Assembly (NCBI RefSeq): GCF_963506605.1
Contig: NC_083277.1
Coordinates: 63,984,001 to 64,048,000, forward strand
DNA: 64,000 nt
Origin: Zootoca vivipara
Lineage: Eukaryota
Reading direction: 5' to 3'
Shown here: one piece after another, positions 27,845 through 44,300 of the stretch
Layout of the letters: the number at the start of each line of letters is the position of its first letter
Numbering within the stretch: the first letter of the stretch is position 1
Notes under the pieces: generated by a model
What the model was told of the DNA's origin: nothing
What the model saw: only the letters and a program-made list of their open reading frames with translations
The model's database searches: none
Translations under genes and position numbers: made by a program

Positions 27845-29005
27845 CTAAACTGGCGTGGGCAGCTGCCCGTTGACTATCGAGTGCTTGATGCTCTCATTCA
27901 AGGTGGTGGCTCGGAAAGTGTAAGACCGCCCTCTGACCGAGCCCTCTGTATAGAGCCTCTCCGGCTTGTTCTGGCAACGGAAGAACATGAGGAATCCATT
28001 GCGGTAGTTCTTATTCATCCAGCCATAGAGCAGAGGATTAGCAAAAGTGGAGCACATGGCCACCACGTGGAAAACGGTGTAAAGAAGTTTATAGTCATGG
28101 AAGATGAGCACCAGGTCAAGGTCAACGGCAAGTTGGAAAACATGGAAGGGGAGCCAACAGACTGCAAACACCACCACCACCATGACCAGCATCTTTGTGG
28201 TCTTTCTCCTCCGGCAGTGACTGTCACTCCTAGCAGTGGGACTGATGTGGCTTTTCAGCTTGAACCATATTCTGATGTAGGCATAGCAGATGATGGAAAG
28301 AGGGAGGACATATTGCAAGAGGAGCATGGATAAGCTGTATATGGTGGCGTCCCTGCTTTCAGAAGGCCATTTCTCAGAGCAGACGGCGATTCTGAGATTG
28401 ATGGATGGGATTTCTTCGTACCTGTACTCTCGGAAGATGGCCAGTGGACTGGCTAGGACGGCGGCAACCAGCCACGTGAAAGCGATGATGGTGAAGCTGA
28501 CCTTCTTGGATATCCTGCTATCCAAATGGAAAACAATGCATCTGTACCTGTCCAGAGCAATCACAGTTAAGGTGAGAGTAGACACATGGACACTTAAAGC
28601 TTGAGCGTAGGAGACCAGGTGACAAAGCACAGCCCCGAACTTCCACTCATCCAACAGAGTGTAAGCCAAAGTGAAGGGCAAGCAGAGCGTGTCCACCATC
28701 AAGTCTGCCAGAGCCAGGTTAGCTATGAAGAAGTTGGTTACAGTCCTCATTGTTCTGTATCTCACAATCATGTAGACTACTAAGGAGTTGCCAAAGAATC
28801 CCAGAAGAATGATTAGGGAGTAGGCAGCTATCAATATGATCTGGACTCCCGGGATCTTGGTACTGTCCATCATAACATTACTGGATCCTTCAAGCCCCTG
28901 GCTAGGGGTGGCAAAGCCCTTTGCATGCCAGCTGAACGGCAGTTGTTTATCCAAGTTATGCTCTTCCAGGATGATAGTGCTGTTGGCTTGATCAAGCAGC
29001 CCCAT
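27845..29005 (-). CDS. NPY7R: Neuropeptide Y receptor, Y2 subfamily, most likely Y7 (class A GPCR, intronless CDS, 386 aa)
   Basis: Seven hydrophobic segments with GN (TM1), NLALAD (TM2), DRY, CWLP and NPLLY. Y2-family signatures MRTVTNFFIANLA, ASPLAIFREY, CSEKWP, KTTKML and AMCSTFANPLLYGWMN. DRY (Y2 has DRH) and NYRNGFL point to Y7 rather than Y2. Good Kozak context GGAATGG; N-glycosylation site NST at N8. Confidence 0.9.
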   Translation of the reverse strand: MGLLDQANSTIILEEHNLDKQLPFSWHAKGFATPSQGLEGSSNVMMDSTKIPGVQIILIAAYSLIILLGFFGNSLVVYMIVRYRTMRTVTNFFIANLALADLMVDTLCLPFTLAYTLLDEWKFGAVLCHLVSYAQALSVHVSTLTLTVIALDRYRCIVFHLDSRISKKVSFTIIAFTWLVAAVLASPLAIFREYRYEEIPSINLRIAVCSEKWPSESRDATIYSLSMLLLQYVLPLSIICYAYIRIWFKLKSHISPTARSDSHCRRRKTTKMLVMVVVVFAVCWLPFHVFQLAVDLDLVLIFHDYKLLYTVFHVVAMCSTFANPLLYGWMNKNYRNGFLMFFRCQNKPERLYTEGSVRGRSYTFRATTLNESIKHSIVNGQLPTPV

Positions 29006-29057: not shown

Positions 29058-29090
29058 CTGTGAACATGGAAACAAGAACACACAAAAAGG
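29058..29090 (-). promoter_or_regulatory. Splice acceptor upstream of the NPY7R coding exon
   Basis: Minus strand CCTTTTTGTGTGTTCTTGTTTCCATGTTCACAG|GTGGAG. The exon would start at 29057, 52 nt before the ATG, with no upstream ATG. This fits the 5' UTR intron known for NPY2R. Confidence 0.7.
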
Positions 29091-31799
29091 ATATTTTAGA
29101 TAGGAGGGAGGGGAAACCCTAGATATTTCAGGTTTCAACGGCATATCCAAGAGAGCATTTCAAATTAGGCTCCATCCCTAAAGTCCTACCAACACTCTTT
29201 CAATTAAAATTCATTGTCCATAGTTTCCATACAAAGTTTCCATGGCTGTTCTTTGACTCAGTTAGATGCCCCCCCCCATTTTTATCCACATGATAAAATT
29301 AATACTGACCAAAGATCTAAGAGGCTCGTCTCAATTGAATTATTTGCATTAAAAATGTATTTACTTCACAAACTTTATTTGTCTGAAATTGAATGGGTTG
29401 GAAAGACCCTTTCAAATGTCATGCTGATCAAATCAGATAAACCAAATCTTCTATTTAGCTGCTAACAACAGGCAGCCCTTGGCCTGCAATCTGCCTCCGT
29501 GGTCTCTGGTGACATGGGCTCTGCTTGTCAGAATAATTCAATCTGAGAGAAGGATGGGGAAGGAATACAAATAAATATATAAATCAATAAAGGGCTGGGA
29601 AGGTAATAGAATCTGTGGCAGTTTGCCCATGGGGGTGACATAAAGTTGCAGTTCCACCACACACACTTACCTGGGTGAAATAACACAGTGGGAAGCAAAG
29701 TTGAGTCACATAGCATCCTTAGGTACCCACTGGGCCCAGAACCCTGGCAGGGCTGAGCACCACCACTTAGCCTGGCCCTTTGGCTGACAGTCCGATCCAC
29801 TGGTTGCTCATCAGCTACATCCTGGAGCTGTGTGTTCAATTTTCCACAGTGCCCTTGAAGTAGCATTTCTTTGGGGCACTGTGGGAAATTTAAATGGCTG
29901 CTCCCAGTAGGGATCTGGGAGCTGCCATTTAAATTTACCACAACACCTTGTAGAGATGCTTTGTTGGGGGAACTGGGCTGGGGAGATTTAAAAGTTGTTT
30001 CATCAGAGTGCTGCAGCCACCAGGTCATGTAGCTGAGGGCCCCCTCAAAGGTGGAGCTGGCTGTGTTTTGAATACACATACTTAGGATTGGGCTGTCAAA
30101 TGGAAGGCCTAGAGGACTTTCTGGAACCGTAAACTTTTCCCATTGTAGTATACAGAATTCAATTCCCCCCCCCCTAATCTGAATCAGTGAATTATTGGTA
30201 TGCTAGGGTTAGTAACTTTATCAGTCATTGCCAAACAAGATATGAGTGGATCTCACAGCATTTGGTTTGGTTTTTTTTTAAGATAAAATGAAGAGGGACA
30301 ATGTACCCAATTTCCCTGATTTAAATCATCCTATGATGCTGCTAAAGTAGCCATGGATAGGAAGAAAGACTGCTATACTCTGGGAAACAATTGGACTCAT
30401 GAAGCTAGCATAACTTGACGGTAGGTTGTGATAAGAAATCAAGTGAGTTACATGCACGAGTGAGCAAGCTCCAAGATGCAGATTTAAACAAGATAATGTT
30501 TCTTTCCTAGAGCTAGACACAGCTTCTGATTTACAACTTCCATTAAGCTTCATCTCAAATGAATATATCCCCAATGCGCCTTGAGTTTCCAGATGATAAT
30601 TATCTCATCATCCAGCACACCCAGCTGCTTATCACTCCCCTTTGGAACGTTCCAAACATTTGCTCTGACCATTCCATTTTAGCCTGAAGAAAGGTTATGT
30701 GAACCTGAAAATGTGATTATTGTGTTTTTGCATTTGTTCCTAAGCAACCTGCATTCATTCTCTCAATAGAAACGTTTATGCATTTCACATGCTACACTCC
30801 TCAACAGTTGGATCATGAAGACTTAGTGAAATCACTGGGCAACTTGCAAACAACTAGTTTAAAGATAGTGGAACTGAGTAATTTGGTCCACAAATATCAT
30901 TGACCTGGTTGTTGCTGGATCATCTATTTTCACCATGTGGCAGTTCTCTTGTGTTTTTCCGTGAAATGCATGCAGTGGTTCCTTAAACAAACAGGGGTGG
31001 GGGGAGAAAATGGCTGACCAGATGGTGACAAAGGCTGAAGTTATGTCACAATTCATAATAAATGTCCCTTTGTCCATTCATCACTTGGTAGAACAAAGTT
31101 CATAATCCCTCTTGAGAGCAGCTGCAGAAATTCATGTTGCTTGGCTGCTAAACTCTGCTGTATGCGAAGAGAGAAAGGGAGGAAGGGGCCTGGTTTAGAT
31201 TGGTCTGAGCTCCTTCCTCACTTAAATATTACTGGCTCACAGAGACGAACACCAATGGGTTGATCTGGGATGGTGACTTTTGTAGTAGATTCTCTATGAA
31301 ACACAAATTAATATCCTTCTGTACAGTTGTGGGGATAAAGACTGTCAGTTCAACTTCATTGCTGCCCAGAAACACTCTTCTGGCTCAAGCCTCCCTTGTG
31401 CTGTAGGGGTCATATTGACCCAAACTTTTCAGAAAGAATGAACAATAACTCACGACAGAACTCAAAAGTTGGTGACATATGGGATTAAGGTTGGGTATTG
31501 TGTTTCAAAGGCTCCCACACTGTCCTGTGTATTTAACCCTCATGGCCACAAATTTGCGTGTTAACATGTGCTAAGTTTCACTGTTGGTATGGCTTGTTTT
31601 TCTTGTCATTTCCCACCCTCCACCCCCACTACTTGCCATACTGGACATTTGCAAGCTTGAGGGAAATGGGTATTACGGTAATTGCATGGTGAGATATATA
31701 ATATGATAGCTGAGTTCACTTCTGATTTTACCAAATTACTTTTGTAGCAACTCCCTTTAGGCATTGCAGAATAGCGTGGTGGCCATATTTAGCCAGAGT

Positions 31800-32288
31800 T
31801 CATAGAATCATAGAATCATAGAGTTGGAAGAGACCACAAGGGCCATCCAGTCCAACCCCCTGCCAAGCAGGAAACACCATCATGGCATTCTTGACATATG
31901 TCTGTCAAGCCTCTGCTTAAAGACCTCCAAAGAAGGAGACTCCACCACACTTCTTGGCAGCAAATTCCACTGTCGAACAGCTCTTACTATAAGGAAGTTC
32001 TTCCTAATGTTTAGGTGGAATCTTCTTTCTTGTACAGTAGTTTGAATCCATTGCTCCGTGTCCGCTTCTCTGGAGCAGCAGAAAACAACCTTTCACCCTC
32101 CTCTATATGACATCCTTTTATATATTGGAACATGGCTATCATATCACCCCTTAACCTCCAGGCTAAACATACCCAGTTCCCTAAGCCGTTCCTCATAAGG
32201 CATTGTTTCCAGGCCTTTGACCATTTTGGTTGCCCTCCTCTGGACACGTTCCAGCTTGTCAGTATCCTTCTTGAACTGTGGTGCCCAG
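31800..32288 (-). mobile_element. CR1 LINE 3' fragment
   Basis: (CATAGAAT)n tail on the plus strand. [29 protein letters not shown]...RTRSNGFKL. Confidence 0.9.
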
Positions 32289-33158
32289 TTGTCTAGGATT
32301 ACTGGTACATCTAAAAGTTATCGTGAAATAGACTCACCACCACACTGACCATTAAAAGTATTGCCTACAGACACCAAGCTATGTTCAGTACCATGGTTGC
32401 AGGTCTAGCCCAAGTTAAGCACATTTATATTTTATTGATAAAGTGATCTTGGGATGAAGGGTGGTATATAAATTTAGTAATCCAGCCCCAATCCAGCTCT
32501 AGTCATGCATTCATTAGTGGCGTGGGCTGGGTAGCACATCACTGCTCCACATCAAAAGGAGCATCTGACCAAGGGCTGACCCAAGACATTCTGTTGCCTG
32601 ATATGAAGTGGCAAATGGAACCCCATTTTCCCCACCCCCAAGGTCAATGTGCATAATGTCCAAAGCCAGCCAAGTCATTTCGACACCTGAGGCAAAAAAC
32701 AACAACAACAACAAACCCAACAAGCACATTTCCCCCACCCTGGCAATAAAAATGCAACAACGACAAATTAAATGACTAAAATTATCCTTCTCTTTCTGGC
32801 TAGTTCAGTTGGATTCAGATGAGCAATGTAGCTGCAGATATTCATCCACATCCGCCACCCTGATTTAGATTGGTCTGAGCTTCTTCCTCACCATATTATT
32901 GGCTCACAGATCGCTCTTGATGGTTCCAAGGATAAACACTGAGGTATACAGACAAGCTGATGCAACACAGGATGTCTTAACATGTGTGAGCATTTGATAG
33001 TTTGTCTATAAGACCCTTTTATCCAGTAAAATATATTGAGACCATGCAAAAATAAATCAGTAAACTGCGGGTTTTCTCCATGTGTTTCCATGATACCATT
33101 CCCTTTACCGCTGTATTTGGCTTGACTGTCCCATTGACTTCCACATGCTGATAGCCAT

Positions 33159-33310
33159 GGATAGCTCACTTGGCTAGAGCATGGTGCTGATAATGCCAAG
33201 GTTGCAGGTTCGATCCCCATATGGGACAGCTGCATATTCCTGCATTGCAGGGGGTTGTGTTAGATGATCTGCAAGATCCTTTCCAACTCTACAATTCTAT
33301 GATACTATGA
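33159..33310 (+). mobile_element. tRNA(Ile)-derived SINE with CR1-like tail
   Basis: GGATAGCTCACTTGGCTAGAGCATGGTGCTGATAATGCCAAGGTTGCAGGTTCGATCCCC aligns to vertebrate tRNA-Ile. It is followed by a CR1 3' end TTCCAACTCTACAATTCTATGA. Confidence 0.82.
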
Positions 33311-34357
33311 ATCTGATATTGTGCTTGATTTCCTCATCTCCTTTGCAAGTAGGCTGAAATGGACAAAGGCTGCACAGCAAACTATGCTTGCTCCGCTGTC
33401 TTCTTCATATTTCCCCCCACTTCAAACAATTAGCTGCAAAGTAACAATTCCTGCAATTTCTAAAAGTTAACAATTAGAGAACAGTCAGAGGTACAATTAT
33501 TGTTCGGACCATTTCGGATTAATTGTTTTAAGTGTCTTAATGGATTTTTTAAAAAATAGGCTAACATTTCAGAATTAATTAATGCATTTCAGAAATGAGG
33601 CAAAGTAATAAGTGTGATCAAAAATAATTTGCAGTGCTTCTAGACTAGTTAATATCATGCGGCGGATTTCACCCAAACAGAAACCACGTTTTCTGAAAAC
33701 ATGCTGAAATTTTAAGCTGTAGCCAGACAGGCTCCTCGAGTAGATGGAGAAATTGCTGGTGTTTTGTAAGAATCAAGCAACAGCTAAGCAGTCTTGCTGA
33801 CCGGCACAGGAGGAAGAATTCATTTGTGACATGATATAGTTGTAAAAGCTCTAAGAGACTATTAAACTTTTGGTGGTAAACATTTTGGGTACTTTCATGT
33901 GTCTTCTTTCCCATGGAAGCAATAACTAGCGGGGGTCATGGCCAAACAGTTAAGGTGATACTAGGACAGTTAAGCTAATGCAGTGGATATACAAAGCAGG
34001 GTTTCGCAAACTGTGAGCTAGGGATCAACAGTGAGCCTCAACCCACTTTCAAGCTGGCCTCAGTGCTGCAGCCTTCAGCCTGCCCAGTGCTTCCTTGCTT
34101 CTTCATCCCACCCATGGGGTGGGATCAGCAGCTTCCCACATGTGGAGTATGGAGGCACTCATGAGTGGGAGCTGACTAGAGAGTGAGACTGAAGCGCATG
34201 AAGTTGGAGGGAGGAAAGAAAGAGAAGAAAAGAAAAGAGATTAGGAATGGGCAGAGTTGCTGGTCAAGTGTGAGGGAAGGAGGAGAAAAACAGGAAGGAG
34301 GCAGAAGGGATGGTGAGGCAGAGGAAGAGGAAAAGAAGCAGCAAGTGTTTAGTGGTG

Positions 34358-34405
<48 letters not shown>
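34358..34405. repeat. (CTG/CAG)16 trinucleotide repeat
   Basis: Pure TGC run, next to a purine-rich tract. Confidence 0.95.
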
Positions 34406-34842
34406 ATCTTCTGCCCCCTTCCGTCTCTCTCACACACACATGTACACTTGTTCGCTTACTCGCTTTCCCACAGCCCAGTCTTCCTTCTCAGCTAGGATGC
34501 CTCCCCTCACTGCCTTCAAAATGGCAGCCGCCTCAGAAAAACAAACAGCCACTAGGCAGTGGTGCTAGGAAATAGGCAACTGGTGTGTGCACATGTGCTT
34601 GCATGTGTCATGTGCTAGGACAGAGGAAAAGAAGGTGAGACTGAATGAATATGACCAGGAGAGGGAGGGGTTTGAGTTTGGTGGGAAGAGATAGTCTTCC
34701 TTCTCTGAGGTGAAAGGGTCCTCAGGAAGAGATAACAGAGAGAAGCTTTAGTTACAGGTAGGTAGCCGTGTTGGTCTGAGTCGAAGCAAAATAAAAAAAT
34801 TCCTTCAGTAGCACCTTAAAGACCAAATAAGTTTATATTTTG

Positions 34843-34880
34843 GTATGAGCTTTCGTGTGCATGCACACTTCTTCAGATAC
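34843..34880 (-). ncRNA. Minimal type I hammerhead ribozyme motif (Penelope-associated), complete core
   Basis: Minus strand GUAU-CUGAAGA-A-GUGUG(CAUG)CACAC-GAA-AGCU-C-AUAC: stem I GUAU/AUAC, stem II, palindromic stem III AGCU, cleavage triplet CUC. Confidence 0.75.
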
Positions 34881-34902
34881 ACTAGAAACAGAAGTGTCAG
34901 AC

Positions 34903-35068
34903 NNNNNNNNNNNNNNNNNNNNNNNNNNNNNNNNNNNNNNNNNNNNNNNNNNNNNNNNNNNNNNNNNNNNNNNNNNNNNNNNNNNNNNNNNNNNNNNNNN
35001 NNNNNNNNNNNNNNNNNNNNNNNNNNNNNNNNNNNNNNNNNNNNNNNNNNNNNNNNNNNNNNNNNNNN
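34903..35068. other. Assembly gap (N run)
   Basis: 166 N. Confidence 1.
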
Positions 35069-35075
35069 TTCTAGT

Positions 35076-35113
35076 GTATCTGAAGAAGTGTGCATGCACA
35101 TGAAAGCTCATAC
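35076..35113 (+). ncRNA. Minimal type I hammerhead motif, second copy (C11.1>U)
   Basis: GTATCTGAAGAAGTGTGCATGCACATGAAAGCTCATAC. Confidence 0.65.
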
Positions 35114-35430
35114 CAAGAGAGAAGCTGTTATGGGAGGAATAAGTGTGCATAACAGGAGCAGAGAAGAGAGATCAGGGAATGTAGACCTTATTCCTTCTCC
35201 CCACAAACTGAAGGGGAAGAGAAGGGTAAATGACAGAGATGAATAAAATACTTTGAAAGGCATGAGTATGGGGGTTAAAATATAAAATAACAAGCTTTCT
35301 CCACATGGGAGCCTCTGGGTCAGCAAATTCTGCTGAGTCATGATACCTCCAGAACCAACTGGAGGAAAGGTAAACTATGGAACTCCCTGTCACAAGGAAA
35401 TCACTGTGGCACATTTTGAAGAGGAATTAG

Positions 35431-35570
35431 CAGTGCTTTTTTTATTTTAAAAATGTTTAGGGGTACTCTCATTTTCCTACTCATATTGAAATACTGTCTC
35501 TCAATGAGGCCAAACTTAGCTTCACACACAAAATGTTTAGGGGTATGCATCCCCCCAGAAAAAAGCACTG
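35431..35570. mobile_element. hAT MITE
   Basis: TIRs CAGTGCTTTTTT / AAAAAAGCACTG. Perfect TSD GGAATTAG at 35423-35430 and 35571-35578. Confidence 0.88.
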
Positions 35571-36001
35571 GGAATTAGATATCAATTAAAAGCTATGTCA
35601 GCAATTGCCAGCAGATTATGCCAAACTCCACACTCTTCTGCCATCATTTTGTGACAGAGCTGGATCCAGGAGAACTCTCAAACTATACATTTACCATGGC
35701 AGGCAATTTACTGATTTCCTGGACCCAGAAACCCCTCACCCACCCACTTTGGTCTTTCAAATTGTAGTGGTGCCCTGTGTGAGGCAAAAATCTGTTGCCC
35801 CAGCACTTCTTGCCTTCTGTTCTGTGTGTGCACACTGTGTCACAGTTGCGATGCCCTGCAGCTCTGTCCCTTGGTTCAACACCCAGCACAGTTTATTATC
35901 CCTCATCCAGCCCAATGCTGTATGCAGACACCAGTCCAGGGCCTTTTCAGCCATTCCTGATTTAGAAATTACAGAGAATTAAAGTTGGGTATCGTGAGTA
36001 A

Positions 36002-36369
36002 TGATGCTTTTGAATTATGGTGCTGGAGGAGACTCCTGAGAGTCCCATGGACTGCAAGAAGATCAAACCTATCCATTCTGAAGGAAATCAGCCCTGAGTG
36101 CTCACTGGAAGGACAGATCCTGAAGCTGAGGCTCCAATACTTTGGCCACCTCGTGAGAAGAGAAGACTCCCTGGAAAAGACCCTGATGTTGGGAAAGATG
36201 GAGGGCACAAGGAGAAGGGGACGGCAGAGGACGAGATGGTTGGACAGTGTTCTTGAAGCTACCAACATGAGTCTGACCAAACTGCGGGAGGCAGTGGAAG
36301 ACAGGAGTGCCTGGCGTGCTATGGTCCATGGGGTCACGAAGAGTCGGACATGACTAAACAACAACAACA
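36002..36369 (+). mobile_element. BovB LINE, 5'-truncated
   Basis: DAFELWCWRRLLRVPW...VTKSRT and (CAA)n tail. TSD AT(C/T)GTGAGTAA at 35991-36001 and 36370-36380. Confidence 0.92.
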
Positions 36370-36399
36370 ATTGTGAGTAAACACCTTGCTCCAAAACTC

Positions 36400-36780
36400 C
36401 TAATGGCTGCTCCCAATTGCTTCGTGTAGATGTTAAATACCTTCAGAAACAAGATAGTGCCCTGTGGCACCACATAACCAGGGGGCCAAGGAGCACTCAC
36501 CCAACGCTACCTTTTGGAATCTGTTCTGGCGATAAGACCAGAGCCACTGCAGAACAGTGCCCCTTAAACCCATCTCCTGTAGAGGATCCAATATAGGATA
36601 CCATAGTCAATAGTATCAAAAGCCCATGAAAAATCTAGTAAGAGCAACAGGGTTGCAGTCCCCCAATAGGGGCCATCCATCTAGGCAGTATCAGTCCCAA
36701 GCCCAGTTTTAATCTGGTTATGTGTACACAGGCTGTATTTGGACTGGATTAGTTCAGACTCCCAAGTTGTGGGCAAGCAT
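36400..36780 (-). mobile_element. Old L2 reverse-transcriptase fragment
   Basis: Minus-strand translation around 36530-36650 gives LLLLDFSWAFDTIDYG...MGLRGTVLQWLWSY with a frameshift (RT LLDLSxAFDTIDH motif). Confidence 0.6.
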
Positions 36781-38040
36781 GATAATGTTCCTCCATGCAA
36801 CAAAGTACCATTACAAAGAATACTAGAATGTCTAGCCACCATCTCTAGAAGGATTTAAAAAGAAATAGAGGAACGTGAGCCCCCATGATTCAGAAACGTT
36901 ATACTGTACTAGAAATAAGTTGATCGTTACACAAATAAGTGGAGCATTTAATGGGACGGAATAAGATTCCAACATGATAGACTTTAAAGAAGCAATGGGT
37001 TTAATTAAAGCCAAGAAAGTACTTTAGAGGTCAACTAAAGTTGAGTAAGATCTCATAATATGTTTTGATGATATTTGATATAGGCTGGAGAATCAGGCTA
37101 AGGTACTCCGTAAGGTTAGAGGGAAACAGCTTAGAAGCCATTATGCTAATAATCTAAGTTCAGACAACAAAGTCAAAGGACTTGAATTGCTGATATTGTG
37201 ACTACTGTACAACTGAAATGTGATAACATTAGTGGGCATATGCACTTCTAGGGTAGATGCCATCTATGGAAGGTGGAGCTTGGATTATCTGAACAGTTGC
37301 AAAACTACAAGGTTTATTGAATACTAACAGCACCCTAATGTAGAATTGATCTGCCCTAGTAATATGATCCTAAAAGTTCTCGATCTCCCTTAGGGGTGTG
37401 ATTGGTGGCATAATGATCTACTGATATCTGCATGGGATCAGAAATTACCCTAGTGCTGGATCAACACTTCCTCTGCCATCAGAGGTAGCAGACTTTCTGG
37501 TAATTTTCTCTTGATGTGAATAAGTATAAATAAGTAAATATTTACTACTATAAGTAAATATTTGCCTAGATCATAGGTTGACTCTTGATTCAGGCCTTCA
37601 GAGCAGTTTTTTTTTTAATGATTGCTGCTGTTCTAAAGGCAACAGGGTAGGGTACTGATAACTTCAGGAGAGGATTGCAGTCCCTTCTTAGCAAGGCTTT
37701 CTCCTGATAATTTCCTGAGCCTCTAACCTCATGGCATGGCATGCTGTGCAATAACTGAAAGCCTCCTGCTAATGCTCCAGATTTGATCTGTCACTGCCTC
37801 AATTATCCTGCCCTACTGAAGATGTGGAATCTATGTCACAATACAATTCTCGGTGTTAGTGGTGCCACAGGGCTCTGCTGGGTTGGGTTTTTTTTTTTTT
37901 TTTTTTGCCACAACACACTGTAGCTTTAATTGCTTACCACGGGGTTTCTGGGTTGTGCTTGAATTTCTCCATTTCTGCTTGCTTTGACTCTGGATTTATT
38001 TCTACAGTAGCACTGGAACCATCCTTTAACCAGAACTGTA

Positions 38041-38068
38041 GTGTGTGTGTGTGTGTGTGTGTGTGTGT
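38041..38068. repeat. (GT)14 microsatellite
   Basis: Pure GT run. Confidence 0.95.
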
Positions 38069-38198
38069 AAGCAATTAAGAAGTTAGTGTTTTGTCAACAG
38101 ACAACAGATTCATATATGTATGAAAACATGGTTGGTATACTCTCCACCTTTGATATCGTTAAATGGGCATAACAAGTGATACAGCTGAATATTAATTA

Positions 38199-38525
38199 AA
38201 AGGTAAAGGGTCCCCTGACCATTAGGTCCAGTCATGGACAACTCTGGGGTTGCAGAGCTCATCTCCCTCTATAGGCCGAGGAAGCTGGCGTTTGTCCGCA
38301 GACAGTTTTTCCGGGTCATATGGCCAGCATGACTAAGCCGCTTCTGGCGAACCAGAGCAGCGCATGGAAACACCGTTTTCCTTCCCGCCAGTACCTTTTA
38401 ACTACAGTACTTGCACTTTGACATGCTTTAGAACTGCTAGGTGGGCAGGAGCTGGGACCAAACAACAGGAGCTCACCCTGTCATGGTGGGCATTTGAAGC
38501 ACCAACTTTCTGATTGGCAAGCCCA
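38199..38525 (-). mobile_element. Sauria SINE, diverged and 5'-truncated
   Basis: AAAGGTAAAGGG...GGCCAGCATGACTAAGCCGCTTCTGGCGAACCAGAGCAGC. Confidence 0.85.
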
Positions 38526-38637
38526 CCACAAGAATGTAAATAAAGTTATTTCTGTGTGGTCAATGTTTGGTAACTACTATTAAAGGGGGGCCATATTTGT
38601 CAACCTCTTCAGGCTTTTGTCATTCTCCTTTGATCCA

Positions 38638-39399
38638 GTTACAGGTAGGTAGCCGTGTTGGTCTGAAGCAGTCCAAACAAAATAAAAAATCCTTCCAGTA
38701 GCACCTTGTTGTTGTTTAGTCGTGTCCGACTCTTCGTGACCCCATGGACCATAGCACGCCAGGCACTCCTGTCTTCCACTGCCTCCCGCAGTTTGGTCAG
38801 ACTCATGTTTGTAGCTTCAAGAACACTGTCCAGCCATCTCGTCCTCTGTCGTCCCCTTCTCCTTGTGCCCTCCATCTTTCCCAACATCACGGTCTTTTCC
38901 AGGGAGTCTTCTCTTCTCATGAGGTGGCGAAAGTATTGGAGCCTCAGCTTCAGGATCTGTCCTTCCAGTGAGCACTCGGGGCTGATTTCCTTCAGAATTG
39001 ATAGGTTTGATCTTCTTGCAGTCCATGGGACTCTCAAGAGTCTCCTCCAGCACCAAAATTCAAAAGCATCAATTCTTCAGCGATCAGCCTTCTTTATGGT
39101 CCAGCTCTCACTTCCATACATCACTACTGGGAAAACCATAGCTTTAACTATACGGACCTTATAGTCGACTGTTAACGACTGCAAGAACAGTCATCTACAG
39201 GTTCACCACTCCTATCAGCCAATCACCCATTCCCACCACCCTTCTGAGTAATACCCCTCCCCACCCTCTGACTATACATAAGGGTCTGGTGACTTCTGTT
39301 TCAGTGTATCTGAAGCAGTGTGCATACGCATGAAAGCTCATACCTATGACAAACTTAGTTAGTCTCTAATGTGCTACTGGAATGATTTTTTTATTTTCT
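38638..39399. mobile_element. Penelope-like element (inverted terminus plus plus-strand pLTR), interrupted by BovB
   Basis: GTTACAGGTAGGTAGCCGTGTTGGTCTG at left. Plus-strand pLTR with degenerate hammerhead at 39306-39343. Flanking duplication TTTGATCCA at 38629-38637 and 39400-39408. Confidence 0.78.
38706..39160 (-). mobile_element. BovB LINE, 5'-truncated, nested in the Penelope element
   Basis: ORF 38639-39037(-) is the BovB C-terminus. (TTG)n tail on the plus strand. Confidence 0.92.
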
Positions 39400-41048
39400 T
39401 TTGATCCAAATATAAAAATTTATTAATTTGGACATTAATTCTACATCTCAGAGCTTTCTGGATCCCTGCACTATTTAAAGCATCTTCCCCACTAAGGGAA
39501 CTGTAATTTGTTATAGTTGCCCTACTCTGTAGATTACAAATTGTGGGCTTTACCCGAATGTGTTACTTGGAATGATACTTGGAAGGTAGCAGTAGCTTAG
39601 TGACAGAAGGCTTGTATAAACAAGGGAAAGGGGCAGAGATAACAAAAAACACACTCTGTAGAAACACAGCACTTTAATTTAAAAATTCCTCCCAAGAGCA
39701 GTAAGTTTTGATTGCCTCCTGCGAATGGAATGGGAGGAGCATATAGACTGGAATAAAATAACATCAAGAGGAGAGGACCCCTTACAATCACAAGTTATCA
39801 ACAGTGAAAAGCTAGAAATAAGGGTGTTTGAATTGTTCCAACCTCCTTTCTCTGTTTCATATGTGATTATCAAGAGATGGAAGCCATTTCCATCACCAGC
39901 TTTGGGGATGAAAATGTACAAAGAGGCATAACATTTCCTTCCAACTCAGGGTAATTTCTCCAACTGTTGTGCTGCTCTCCATGTAATATTGTTTATCTAC
40001 CTTTGCCTTTTTATAGTAATAAAAGAGGAGCCTTAAATTGCTGCTAACTCCCCATCTTTGTGTGTCAAATTAAACATTCACAGCTTCCCTTTACCTCCAT
40101 CATGCCCTCCCAGTCATCACTTTGGCTTCTTTTCCTCTGGCAATTAATTTCCTTCTCTTATCACAACTTTCATTATTACTCTTGCAGTAATTATACACCA
40201 GTTGTTTCACCCTTCCCTCGGGGTGCTGGTAAGGGATACCTTTAAAATAGCAAACATGCCTTGTAGAGGATGAGGGAATGCGGAGAATAATATATATTTC
40301 TTAAGGACAACTAGCTAACTTTTTGCACCAGGGAGGAGTGCAATGCTATCTACCTCAGATCCTGGAAGAAATCTGTAGAAATACTGTGTACTGGTGGATG
40401 TGGCAGGCAGAAATGGAAGCATACCAATGACCGTTAGGTCCCAGCAAGAAGAAGAAAATGTGATTAGCATTGCAAGTCTACTCAGATCAGCAGTAAGCCC
40501 CATCAAGCTTACTCACAGGTAACATTTCATAAGATTGTTTCCAAGCAGACCAATTCTAGCCCTCCAGCTCCTGCTCACCAGGGTGGAAGCTTGACATGCT
40601 GGTAAAACAGAAATGAACTGGCTTTGGATCCTGCAGATCCATCACCAGCCCTGTTTTGCTCTGTCTCACCCCCAGCTAATACAGTCAAGAACTCTGCTGG
40701 TGGTATCTTCCCAGCTGCCCTTGCTTTCGGTAGGGAGGCTCTCCACTACAGTTGACCCCCACCCACTGGAGGAGAGATGCAGCCACCTCACTCTCTCCAG
40801 AAGTGCTGAGCAAGGACTTAGGATTCAGTTAGTTCCTAGTCTTCATTTCCTTTGTCCCTCAGACTTTCCAGGTGGTTGGAGGGGCTGCTTAGCATGTACT
40901 CTGATAACACATGGCTGCACTCCCATGTACACTTACTTGCCAGAAAGTCTCATTGGATTCAAGAGCATTTGCTTCTGGGTAGCATTGCACTGTAAGGCTG
41001 CGATACTGCATTTTTATTCATTTCTATGTATGTATGTTTCCATGTGAT

Positions 41049-41196
41049 GCTCTGGTTTCACCAGAAGTGGCTTAGTCATGCTGGCCACATGACCTGGAGA
41101 AACTGTCTGTGGAAGCGGACAAACGCCGGCTCCCTCAGCCTTTAAAGCGAGATGAGCGCCGCAACCCCAGAGTCGTTTCACAACTGGACTTAATTG
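41049..41196 (+). mobile_element. Sauria SINE 3' half, running into a gap
   Basis: GTCATGCTGGCCACATGACC...GCGAGATGAGCGCCGCAACCCCAGAGTCG. Confidence 0.8.
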
Positions 41197-41351
41197 NNNN
41201 NNNNNNNNNNNNNNNNNNNNNNNNNNNNNNNNNNNNNNNNNNNNNNNNNNNNNNNNNNNNNNNNNNNNNNNNNNNNNNNNNNNNNNNNNNNNNNNNNNNN
41301 NNNNNNNNNNNNNNNNNNNNNNNNNNNNNNNNNNNNNNNNNNNNNNNNNNN
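41197..41351. other. Assembly gap (N run)
   Basis: 155 N. Confidence 1.
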
Positions 41352-44300
41352 TTCACCTTTCTGAAAAATTACCAGGGAGCAAGTTCCATCAAACTGATTG
41401 AGATTTACTTCTGACCAAAAAAGCTGAGGGTGCATTGTGAAAGTGCCTCTCACATAGTATCACTGGGTCGCTCTTCAGCGATATTCAAAGCACAGCTGCT
41501 CTCTCTGTACAGTCTTACGGTGTCTGCAATTCCTCAAAAGCACTTAGGAACTTAGCGGAATGTCTGTGTCTGCCAGGACCTCAAGAGAAAACAGCCAGGG
41601 AGGTAAAATGATGAAGCCTAATTAAGTGATTTGTCCCAGATGGCTCAGAAATCCAGTGGCAGAATACAGCTTTTAAGGGAGCTTCCTTGTTTTGTTTTGT
41701 ATTGTTTTGTATTGTTTTGATGTATCTGACACCTGCGAGCCACATGGGAATCTGGAACTACGCTAGTACCAGCACTGAATGATCCCTACTTGTCCAAATA
41801 GCAGATCAAGGGATTTGTGAGATCAAATGAGGGCTTTAGATAGCAGTCCTATAACAACTTGCACAACTTTGAACCTCATGTCTGCCTGGTATGGCTTTGT
41901 GTACATTGCTTTGTACTAAATCACTCACCGCAAAGGTATCATCTGATCGCTGCCTGACACCTTTTAGATAGTTCTTTGTCATTTTTTTTTTAATTCGGGC
42001 AGGCGGCAAAAGCTCCACCCAAAGGAAAGGTGGGAGATAGGGCTGTGCTCTGAAGACAGGATACTCTGTGAAAAGATCCAGACAACACAGCCAGGAGGGG
42101 GCAGCCACCGACACTCTCTGTTCAGCTATGTTGTTTTGTTGATGATTGCAACAACAATGTTTTACATTTAGTGTGAGACAGCACTCTGCTTTTTTCAAAT
42201 CGGTGCTGTTTCGTCATGTCAAGCATTTGGCTCAAGGGATCAACAGAAACAGCTGTTCCTTGCTAGGTGTGTGATGCTTCTTTGAGACAGCGGAAAGTGA
42301 GGGGCAAAGGGAAAGTATGGAGGATTCATAAACTGCAAGTTAAAATGGAACACCACAGAACACAATCTTCAGTAAGCCAAAGGCCCTGTGCTTAAAACCG
42401 AAACAAATCTTCACACTTCTGGACTATAAATCCAGCAAAACAAAGAGCTGTGTGTCCGACACTATATTCATGGCATCTGTCATAGCCTTATTCTGTTGAA
42501 CCAACTCAACCCAGATATTTCCATCTGAGCAAGCTTTTTCTTTCTTTCTCATGGGCATCAAATGCTTGTGAAATGCATTTGAAGATAACACCAGATATTC
42601 TTAAGCATGCCATTTCATGGAAATTCAGCTCAATAGGATTCACTCCTTAGGACAAGTGCAAGAAAAACAGCTGTTTTCTGGTGGCACTTAAAGTGCAAAG
42701 CTGTCTAGCGGGGGGGGGACGGGACAGGGTGGGCAGCAAATGAATTGTGCGTAGGGTAGGTTATGCATCTGGTATTTCCATTATAAGGAACACTTGTAGG
42801 GGTTCACTTTTAAAACCTATGCCCACACTGCTCCTCAAGCATGAGTTTCCCATGCAGTTGGACTAGTTAAATACTTTCTTTGCCAGGAATAAGTCAAGAG
42901 TTATGCCTGTGGAAGTGATCTGCCATGCACTTTGCAAAGGGAGGACAAGCATGGTGATGGAGGAAGGAAATAGAGAGCAGAAAGCACAGCAGGAAGTCTG
43001 TGCTGTATATCCCAACAGAGAGGTGGGTGGTGTTGTGGAATCAATGCTCCTCGTGCATGCAAGTTTGGTTTTTTTGCTGTGCTCACATGACATCGTTGGC
43101 ATCAAAATGCCAAACCAAGTTTTTCTACCATTGAACCTGAGTTTTCCCTTTCTGAGGGAAATCCAGTAAGTTGGTTTTTTTAAAACTACCTGTTGCCAAT
43201 GACTTGCTTGTGATATCTCAACGGCCTATTTGCAATATCTGGAAGCACCTGGAGTCTCTTGAAAAGTCACTCCATCTCTGTTGCATTTAACTGCTACACA
43301 TAAGCTGTTACAGGCTGCAGAATGCTCAAGAACTGGCCCATTCTTTTAATGCTATGTGTAGGATGCAGCCCAGAAGCAGGCTGAATGTAGCTGGCAAAAG
43401 AGCATGCCAAGGTGCACCAGCAAGAACCTTTCCCCTCATTCTGTAAATCCAGCATCTGCAGATAAAGGAGAGTACTTATAACTAGTCGGTAACCAGAAGA
43501 ATCAGACTTTGCACTGTTTTACAAAAGCTGCCTGGGAAGGTGAATGAGACCAGAACCCTCCAACATTGCTGTGCTGTGCTCTGGAGACAGAAAGAACCCA
43601 GATATGCTGACCAGTGAGTGACCCACCTTTTGCACATCTTTCTCCATCTCATCTCACAAACATTTTGAAACTCCTAGCACTATTGCTTGTAGCACATGCC
43701 TCTGTACCACCACCTGAGGCTTAGCAACAGACAATATTTCTTTCAGAGAAAAAAAAGGTGAAAAAGTGACACTACATGAATGATCCCTATTGTCTCAGTT
43801 CATGGGTTTTGCAAATTTGTGTAGCAGTGCTTTTAAAAACCTGCAAAACATGTTTAACCAGAGACTAAAGAAATAAGGGTATATGGCTCCACAGTGAAGC
43901 TATGCTTCCATGTTCCCAGCTTCAACTCTTTTTAAAACTATTGTCTGTCTTCAGACTAAAATTAGCTATACAGGAATGCTGTTTTATAAGTGATGGCAGG
44001 GGATGATAAAACATGCTAATTCTCAGCTGCACAGTAAGATACAAACTCTTCTCTCCCACCAACAAAATAAGACTCACAGAAAATGAAAAAGCATGCCCCC
44101 ACCCCCCACCCCAGTTCTAATTGTCCTTCCTGGATAATGAATAAAAGGAAAGCCACTTACCTGAAATTACTGTTTCATTGCTGCGACAAACCAAGCTCCT
44201 TGTTTCTGTCTTTGCACTCTTCTTCCACTTTGTGAAATCTCGTGGTGGCCAAGACAAAAGCACTTTCTCAAAGTAATTACCTGTACTTTCAGAGAGCAGC

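What the first reader, a model, noticed from the sequence alone, without database searches (positions are those of the whole stretch)
34737..35126. Penelope-like element with two inverted minimal hammerhead ribozymes, one with a complete catalytic core
Seen: minus strand 34880-34843 reads GUAU CUGAAGA A GUGUG-CAUG-CACAC GAA AGCU C AUAC. This is a type I hammerhead core with stem I GUAU/AUAC, an extra A after A9, and stem III reduced to the palindrome AGCU. An inverted second copy (35076-35113) lies across the gap, and an 11-bp flanking duplication bounds the unit, so the inversion looks real rather than misassembled. Established: Penelope-like retroelements carry minimal hammerheads that can cleave as dimers through a palindromic stem III. 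Inference: the intact copy is on the NPY7R sense strand 5.8 kb upstream of the ATG, so it may sit in the pre-mRNA, although a lone monomer should be weakly active.
Basis: partly seen in the sequence, partly recalled or inferred. Interest (0 to 1): 0.7.

Follow-up and report, generated by a model that had tools for sequence, protein, structure and literature searches.

The report
Penelope retrotransposon stub, hairpin-locked hammerhead
This is a short back-to-back piece of a very common jumping gene that landed in an intron of a neuropeptide Y receptor gene; its self-cutting RNA motif is one of about 18,000 identical copies in the genome and is predicted to be locked in a hairpin by its own mirror image, so it is likely an ordinary, silent insertion.

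Summary
The letters are as described: a minimal type I hammerhead on the minus strand (34880-34843), an inverted copy (35076-35113) differing by one base (C11.1 to U), and an 11-bp target duplication. The unit is a 5'-truncated, head-to-head insertion of a Penelope-like retrotransposon with Neptune-type linker. Its 31-nt ribozyme core occurs 17,895 times exactly in this genome; full-length 901-aa RT/GIY-YIG copies exist. Inverted arms, a one-sided tail and short duplications are the family's norm and are published for Penelope-like elements. But the pre-mRNA carries the second arm as antisense, upstream of the ribozyme, and it is predicted to pair 37 of its 38 bases. The inverted copy is a lock, not a dimer partner. 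Copy ends show little trace of cleavage. This scan's notes report the same thing in at least 5 other genomes. Ordinary.

The parts
34737..34747 (.). Left copy of the 11-bp target-site duplication AGAGAGAAGCT
   Evidence: 23 of 24 sampled inverted pairs have an 8-16-nt duplication
34748..34902 (-). Long arm: 3' part of the element's pLTR, from at least -159 to -6 relative to the element's ATG, including the ~40-nt tail (about 34748-34788)
   Evidence: (98% to full-length copy L031)
34843..34880 (-). Minimal type I hammerhead, sense to the host pre-mRNA; predicted cut between 34847 and 34846
   Evidence: features as in PMC4209133
34903..35068 (.). 166 N in the window; holds the inner head-to-head junction, not read; not an assembly gap
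35069..35116 (+). Short inverted arm, visible from -144 to -97 relative to the element's ATG; ends earlier than the family's usual short end (-40 to -62)
   Evidence: 5 of 205 hammerhead-bearing arms end before -64
35076..35113 (+). Second hammerhead copy with C11.1 to U (35101); antisense to the host pre-mRNA
35116..35126 (.). Right copy of the target-site duplication (first base shared with the arm)
27845..29005 (-). Single coding exon of a Y2-subfamily neuropeptide Y receptor, by elimination Y7 (386 aa)
   Evidence: a paralogue on contig C9 scores 596 bits against human Y2, this one 455
29058..44160 (-). 5'-UTR intron that holds the insertion (acceptor AG at 29059-29058; GT donors at 44160 and, alternatively, 40094)
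40095..40120 (-). 3' end of the nearer upstream exon (used in run X2); its 5' extent not mapped
44161..44185 (-). 3' end of the farther upstream exon (used in runs X1, X5); its 5' extent not mapped

Best explanation
This is a 5'-truncated, head-to-head insertion of a high-copy Penelope-like retrotransposon in the 5'-UTR intron of a Y7-type neuropeptide Y receptor gene, and its hammerhead is likely silent there because the pre-mRNA is predicted to fold it into a long hairpin with the inverted arm. How it likely arose (inferred): the element's GIY-YIG nuclease made a staggered cut about 11 bp apart; each free end primed reverse transcription at an internal site near the pLTR-ORF junction (here -6 and -97); the two short cDNAs were joined head to head and the gaps filled, giving the duplication. 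The hammerhead belongs to the pLTR, where it is kept by selection on active lineages; its working form would be a tandem or protein-assisted dimer on the element's own RNA, not this stub. Shown: sequence, copy number, family anatomy, intron position in relatives' transcripts. Predicted: the hairpin. Inferred: the insertion steps and the lack of cleavage.
For: 17,895 exact cores and 20,528 copies of the adjacent 27-mer. Full-length pLTR-ORF-pLTR copies and 3,030-bp tandems; 901 aa with RVT_1 (E 2e-11), CX4CxxC linker, GIY-YIG above the Pfam cut-off. In the first 100 anchor hits of contig C1: 48 arms end at 0..-12, 49 at -40..-62, 3 run on in a tandem; 48 arms form 24 tail-out neighbour pairs, 24 of 24 with one long and one short arm. 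Gap-free sister insertions L007, L011, L019, L024 have the same layout. In 73 arms spanning the motif only N7, the free position of CUGANGA, varies as a subfamily trait (A 60, C 10, T 2, gap 1). Pre-mRNA strand: 37 of 38 ribozyme bases pair with the antisense arm, P(stem I) = P(stem II) = 0. 0 of 100 arms start at the cut site; 6 genome-wide matches end there. Layout, tail and motif are published (PMC3846280, PMC8557442, PMC4209133); priming on both strands at two internal sites is shown in vitro for the anole element (PMC11167929).
Against: No cleavage assay. Folding is an equilibrium model with the N stretch left unpaired. 5' ends at the cut site are somewhat in excess genome-wide: 81 matches against 25 and 15 at two control positions, though the filters differ in capture rate and many cases fit short AT-rich microhomology. 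The short arm's end at -97 is atypical. The splice junctions come from contigs of other organisms, guessed to be RNA; same-species reads were too few to show a junction.
Confidence: 0.9

Rival explanations
1. The sense hammerhead cleaves the receptor pre-mRNA at a low rate, helped in trans by the element's protein or by a second hammerhead on abundant element RNA, and so lowers receptor expression.
For: The motif is intact, sense and intronic; intact ORFs that could supply protein are many; the anole hammerhead cuts when protein is added (PMC11167929).
Against: The antisense arm is transcribed first and is predicted to sequester the motif; flanking pLTR sequence alone already removes stem I; the dimer predicted to be most stable pairs the stem II palindrome (-25.2 kcal/mol) rather than AGCU (-3.9); monomers do not cut and dimers cut weakly (PMC4209133).
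Confidence: 0.04
2. The inverted arm arose by fold-back or self-priming of one cDNA (or from an antisense template), not by separate priming on the two target strands.
For: The two arms of an insertion agree at a subfamily-marking site in 21 of 23 pairs; junctions often sit on palindromes such as AGCT or TGCA; self-priming on an antisense template was proposed in PMC3846280.
Against: Simple fold-back does not explain why the two outer ends fall in two fixed classes, one of each in 24 of 24 pairs; one RNA primed twice also gives matching arms. This rival changes the route, not the verdict.
Confidence: 0.25
3. The inverted copy is an assembly artefact across a gap.
For: The window shows N between the arms; such structures trouble assemblies (PMC8557442).
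Against: The genome's copy holds no N there; an 11-bp duplication bounds the unit; the arms differ by a CpG transition and end at different places; the layout is common in gap-free copies.
Confidence: 0.02

Closest known systems
Minimal hammerheads in pLTRs of metazoan Penelope-like elements (Cervera and de la Pena 2014, PMC4209133; abstract, results, discussion and part of methods read)
   Same: Core CUGANGA/GAAA/UH, extra base after A9, G10.1-C11.1, palindromic 15.2-16.2, 4-bp stem I, place in the pLTR, thousands of dispersed copies, pairs on opposite strands 100-700 bp apart, present in reptiles.
   Different: Stem II is 5 bp with a palindromic loop (7-8 bp in the Schistosoma examples); here the motif is nearly invariant across 17,895 copies, more like their D. 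virilis case.
EN+ Penelope-like insertions with inverted 5'-truncated pLTR, one-sided tail and short duplication (PMC3846280 and PMC8557442; passages read)
   Same: Head-to-head arms, 30-40-nt tail on one end, 8-10-bp duplications, TATA plus initiator-like motif in the pLTR.
   Different: This copy has no coding sequence in view and its short arm ends at -97 instead of about -45.
PAc, Poseidon element of Anolis carolinensis (Frangieh et al. 2024, PMC11167929; main text and part of methods read)
   Same: Lizard RT + GIY-YIG element, two internal start sites that define the tail, hammerhead at the pLTR-ORF junction, little sign of cleavage in vivo.
   Different: In PAc the ORF starts inside the hammerhead (cut 26 nt after the ATG; starts 111-118 nt into the ORF). 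Here the cut is 103 nt before the ATG, the ends lie before the ATG, and a CX4CxxC linker points to Neptune/Nematis rather than Poseidon.
Animal non-LTR retrozymes (bioRxiv 10.64898/2026.07.22.740005; abstract and results read)
   Same: Non-coding, pLTR-derived, hammerhead-bearing.
   Different: Retrozymes are head-to-tail tandems; this unit is head-to-head with a target duplication.

Membership tests
Metazoan minimal hammerhead (min-HHR) | Conserved core CUGANGA ... GAAA ... UH | tested here: met
   Both copies
Metazoan minimal hammerhead (min-HHR) | Extra base between 9 and 10.1, and G10.1-C11.1 pair | tested here: met
   Minus copy has both; plus copy has G-U at this pair
Metazoan minimal hammerhead (min-HHR) | Palindromic stem III remnant | tested here: met
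   AGCU
Metazoan minimal hammerhead (min-HHR) | Stems I and II supported by covariation | tested here: inconclusive
   No stem variation within the family; single look-alikes L173 and L180 have other stem II sequences that pair, but no element ORF was found beside them
Metazoan minimal hammerhead (min-HHR) | Self-cleavage as dimer or with protein | not testable with these tools
   Needs an assay; indirect genomic trace weak
Rfam hammerhead families | Score at or above gathering threshold | tested here: not met
EN+ Penelope-like elements | Single ORF with RT and C-terminal GIY-YIG in the parent family | tested here: met
   901 aa, RVT_1 433-577, GIY-YIG 799-840 in L031 and L035; not in this stub
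EN+ Penelope-like elements | pLTRs, tandems, inverted 5' copy, one-sided tail, short duplication | tested here: met
Neptune clade | CX2-5CxxC linker before the GIY-YIG motif (shared with Nematis; PMC8557442 preprint passage) | tested here: met
   CNKPRCQLC in L031
Neptune clade | Placement by RT phylogeny | not tested
   No reference RT set was on hand; the clade label rests on the linker alone
Non-LTR retrozyme | Head-to-tail tandem of hammerhead-bearing monomers | tested here: not met
   Arms are inverted
NPY7R | Y2-subfamily receptor distinct from the Y2 orthologue | tested here: met
   Y7 as the Y2 sister per PMC9177570 passage; no tree or synteny test

The most novel reading that the evidence does not exclude
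The intronic hammerhead escapes its hairpin during transcription, is switched on in trans by the element's protein or RNA, and cuts the Y7 receptor pre-mRNA; with some 18,000 intact cores in the genome, retrotransposon activity would then tune many host transcripts at once.
Probability: 0.04. Interest if true: 0.7.

Novelty: new member of a known kind. Interest (0 to 1): 0.12.

Why it matters
The locus itself matters little. The family is a useful test bed: young, with many intact ORFs and about 18,000 identical ribozyme cores. Its copies give numbers for two points that the papers read here describe only in words: the two outer ends of an inverted insertion fall one in each of two fixed classes (24 of 24 pairs), and 38 of 100 copies stop at -146..-117, beside a TATA/initiator-like motif, rather than at the cut site. 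Both fit two-site priming on an uncut RNA. If sense, unlocked intronic copies proved depleted, that would be in vivo evidence that minimal hammerheads cut.

Tried and rejected
Rfam: no hammerhead hit. Folding z-scores: uninformative (-0.44, 0.37, -0.52). A guessed splice donor near 34460 that would have put the element upstream of the gene: no coverage in 34308-34543 in 4 runs, and the real donors lie at 40094 and 44160. The look-up of sequencing runs: no RNA holder listed; same-species raw reads X19, X20, X21 (about 6 in 100 of each run read) gave too few reads on the gene to show a junction. Footprint of cleavage in copy ends: 81 vs 25 and 15 for 5' ends; 23 of the 81 are GGT|ATACC palindromic joints; of the first 50 of 206 tight inverted junctions, 6 centre on AGCT and 1 on the cut site; 6 for 3' ends, no control run. 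Left as weak and unresolved. Covariation from other hammerhead families: 11 hits against 102 for the control pattern, so no family found; 191 stem II variants were nearly all point mutants among the 100 listed. Arms copied from two different RNAs: 21 of 23 pairs agree at one marker, no support. A paper search by host group and searches for Y7 and G10.1-C11.1 gave listings of little use. Presence or absence of the insertion in other individuals was not tested. Supplements of the papers were not read; they may hold lizard hammerhead alignments and the PAc sequence.

Full report
Observation. The motif, its inverted copy and the 11-bp duplication are present at the stated places. The two hammerhead copies differ by one CpG transition at 35101, which makes G10.1-C11.1 a G-U pair; the unpaired core is intact in both. 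Rfam finds neither, and the 38-mer is no more stable than shuffles. The N run between the arms is not an assembly gap, since the genome's copy of this place holds no N; the inner junction was not read.

Family. The left arm has 947 first-look candidates in the genome, the 40 scored being 95-100% identical. The 31-nt core occurs 17,895 times exactly (control 0), about once per 80 kb, and the adjacent 27-mer 20,528 times. Twelve fetched long loci show pLTR-ORF-pLTR units, tandems of period 3,030 bp and inverted partial copies. The ORF is 901 aa from its Met, with RVT_1 and GIY-YIG above Pfam's cut-offs and a CX4CxxC linker, which PMC8557442 gives for Neptune and Nematis; no tree was built. The predicted cut lies 103 nt before the ATG. 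Across subfamilies whose pLTRs diverge upstream, the hammerhead stays fixed; in 73 arms only N7 varies as a subfamily trait. This fits selection on the ribozyme in active lineages (inference), not on this copy.

Anatomy of insertions. I took the first 100 anchor hits of contig C1 (0-3.4 Mb), all fetched. 3' ends: 48 at 0..-12, 49 at -40..-62, 3 inside one tandem. 48 arms form 24 tail-out neighbour pairs within 6.5 kb (7 tail-in and 7 same-strand neighbours also occur); 24 of 24 have one long and one short arm; 23 have an 8-16-nt duplication (lengths include microhomology), and one pair 5.85 kb apart may be two insertions. 5' ends: 38 of 100 at -146..-117, 3 at -116..-88, none at -103; 3 were cut off by the locus edge. 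A TATA-like run near -170 and an initiator-like word near -141 match the motif reported in PMC3846280, so the pile-up likely marks the RNA's 5' end and the stem II palindrome (inference). The window's unit fits this pattern: long arm to -6, 11-bp duplication. Its short arm ends at -97, which is rare: 5 of 205 hammerhead-bearing arms end before -64.

Host gene. The ORF at 27845-29005 (-) is a Y2-subfamily receptor; a second one on C9 is closer to human Y2 (596 against 455 bits), so this one is Y7 by elimination. Contigs of runs X1, X5 and X2 (other organisms, RNA by guess) leave the genome at the AG acceptor 29059-29058; their loose ends map once each in the window, at 44164 and 40100, beside GT donors at 44160 and 40094. 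The insertion is thus inside the 5'-UTR intron in both forms. Same-species reads were too few to confirm.

Does it cut? On the pre-mRNA strand the antisense arm comes first and is predicted to pair 37 of 38 ribozyme bases; both stems have probability 0 (N left unpaired). Without that arm, flanking pLTR sequence still removes stem I in most contexts tested: in 6 copies, stem I reaches 0.75-0.85 only in the -141..-90 fragment. In PMC4209133 a monomer did not cut and dimers cut weakly; in PMC11167929 the anole ribozyme cut only with protein, was not needed for insertion, and no RNA-seq ends were seen at the site. Against my reading, 5' ends at the cut site are in modest excess (81 vs 25 and 15), but 23 of the 81 are palindromic joints, others fit AT-rich microhomology (30 inspected), and among the first 50 of 206 tight inverted junctions 6 centre on AGCT and 1 on the cut site. 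Even at face value this is about 1% of copies (my estimate).

Mechanism. Most likely a staggered cut, priming of both target ends at internal sites of an uncut element RNA, and head-to-head joining of two short cDNAs. Both-strand cleavage and two internal start sites are shown in vitro for PAc; their use here is inferred. Fold-back on one cDNA remains a rival route.

Novelty. Motif, layout, tail and duplication are all in print. Seven notes of this scan, in at least 5 other genomes, describe the same kind of unit (unchecked, not counted as support; my hairpin test was sent before I saw them). New member of a known kind; interest 0.12.

Noticed in passing
L043:820-3242 (G000:C1, about 2,777,300-2,779,750): Four hammerheads in a head-to-tail array of period 598 bp: pLTR plus both ORF ends with the middle deleted. 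Looks like a retrozyme-type non-autonomous tandem born from this family, with direct copies able to dimerise.
   Followed up: partly
C1 sample: 24 of 24 tail-out neighbour pairs carry one long and one short 3' end, although the two classes are equally common overall; suggests the two target strands are primed at different fixed sites in one event.
   Followed up: partly
family pLTR, -146 to -117 relative to ATG: 38 of 100 copies stop here, just downstream of a TATA/initiator-like motif; would make many 90-135-nt copies run-off products of priming near the RNA's 5' end.
   Followed up: partly
family pLTR, about -156 to -147; window 34891-34900 (-): Upstream GACACUUCUG can pair with the core's GAAGAAGUGU in read-through RNA of the window's subfamily; weaker in other subfamilies.
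   Followed up: partly
window 40095 and 44161 (-): Two alternative upstream exons splice to the same acceptor of the Y7-type receptor in relatives' contigs.
   Followed up: partly
L035, L036, L037, L039, L040, L042: Many open 925-codon frames and multi-copy tandems: the family looks recently or still active.
   Followed up: no
L173, L178, L179, L180: Hammerhead-like words with other stem II sequences; L178 and L179 share flanks, hinting at an older family. No ORF match nearby.
   Followed up: partly
window 34357-34405; 35970-36370; 38630-39170: A (CTG)n tract in the same intron, and two fragments that look like RTE/BovB LINE ends (label recalled, not tested).
   Followed up: no
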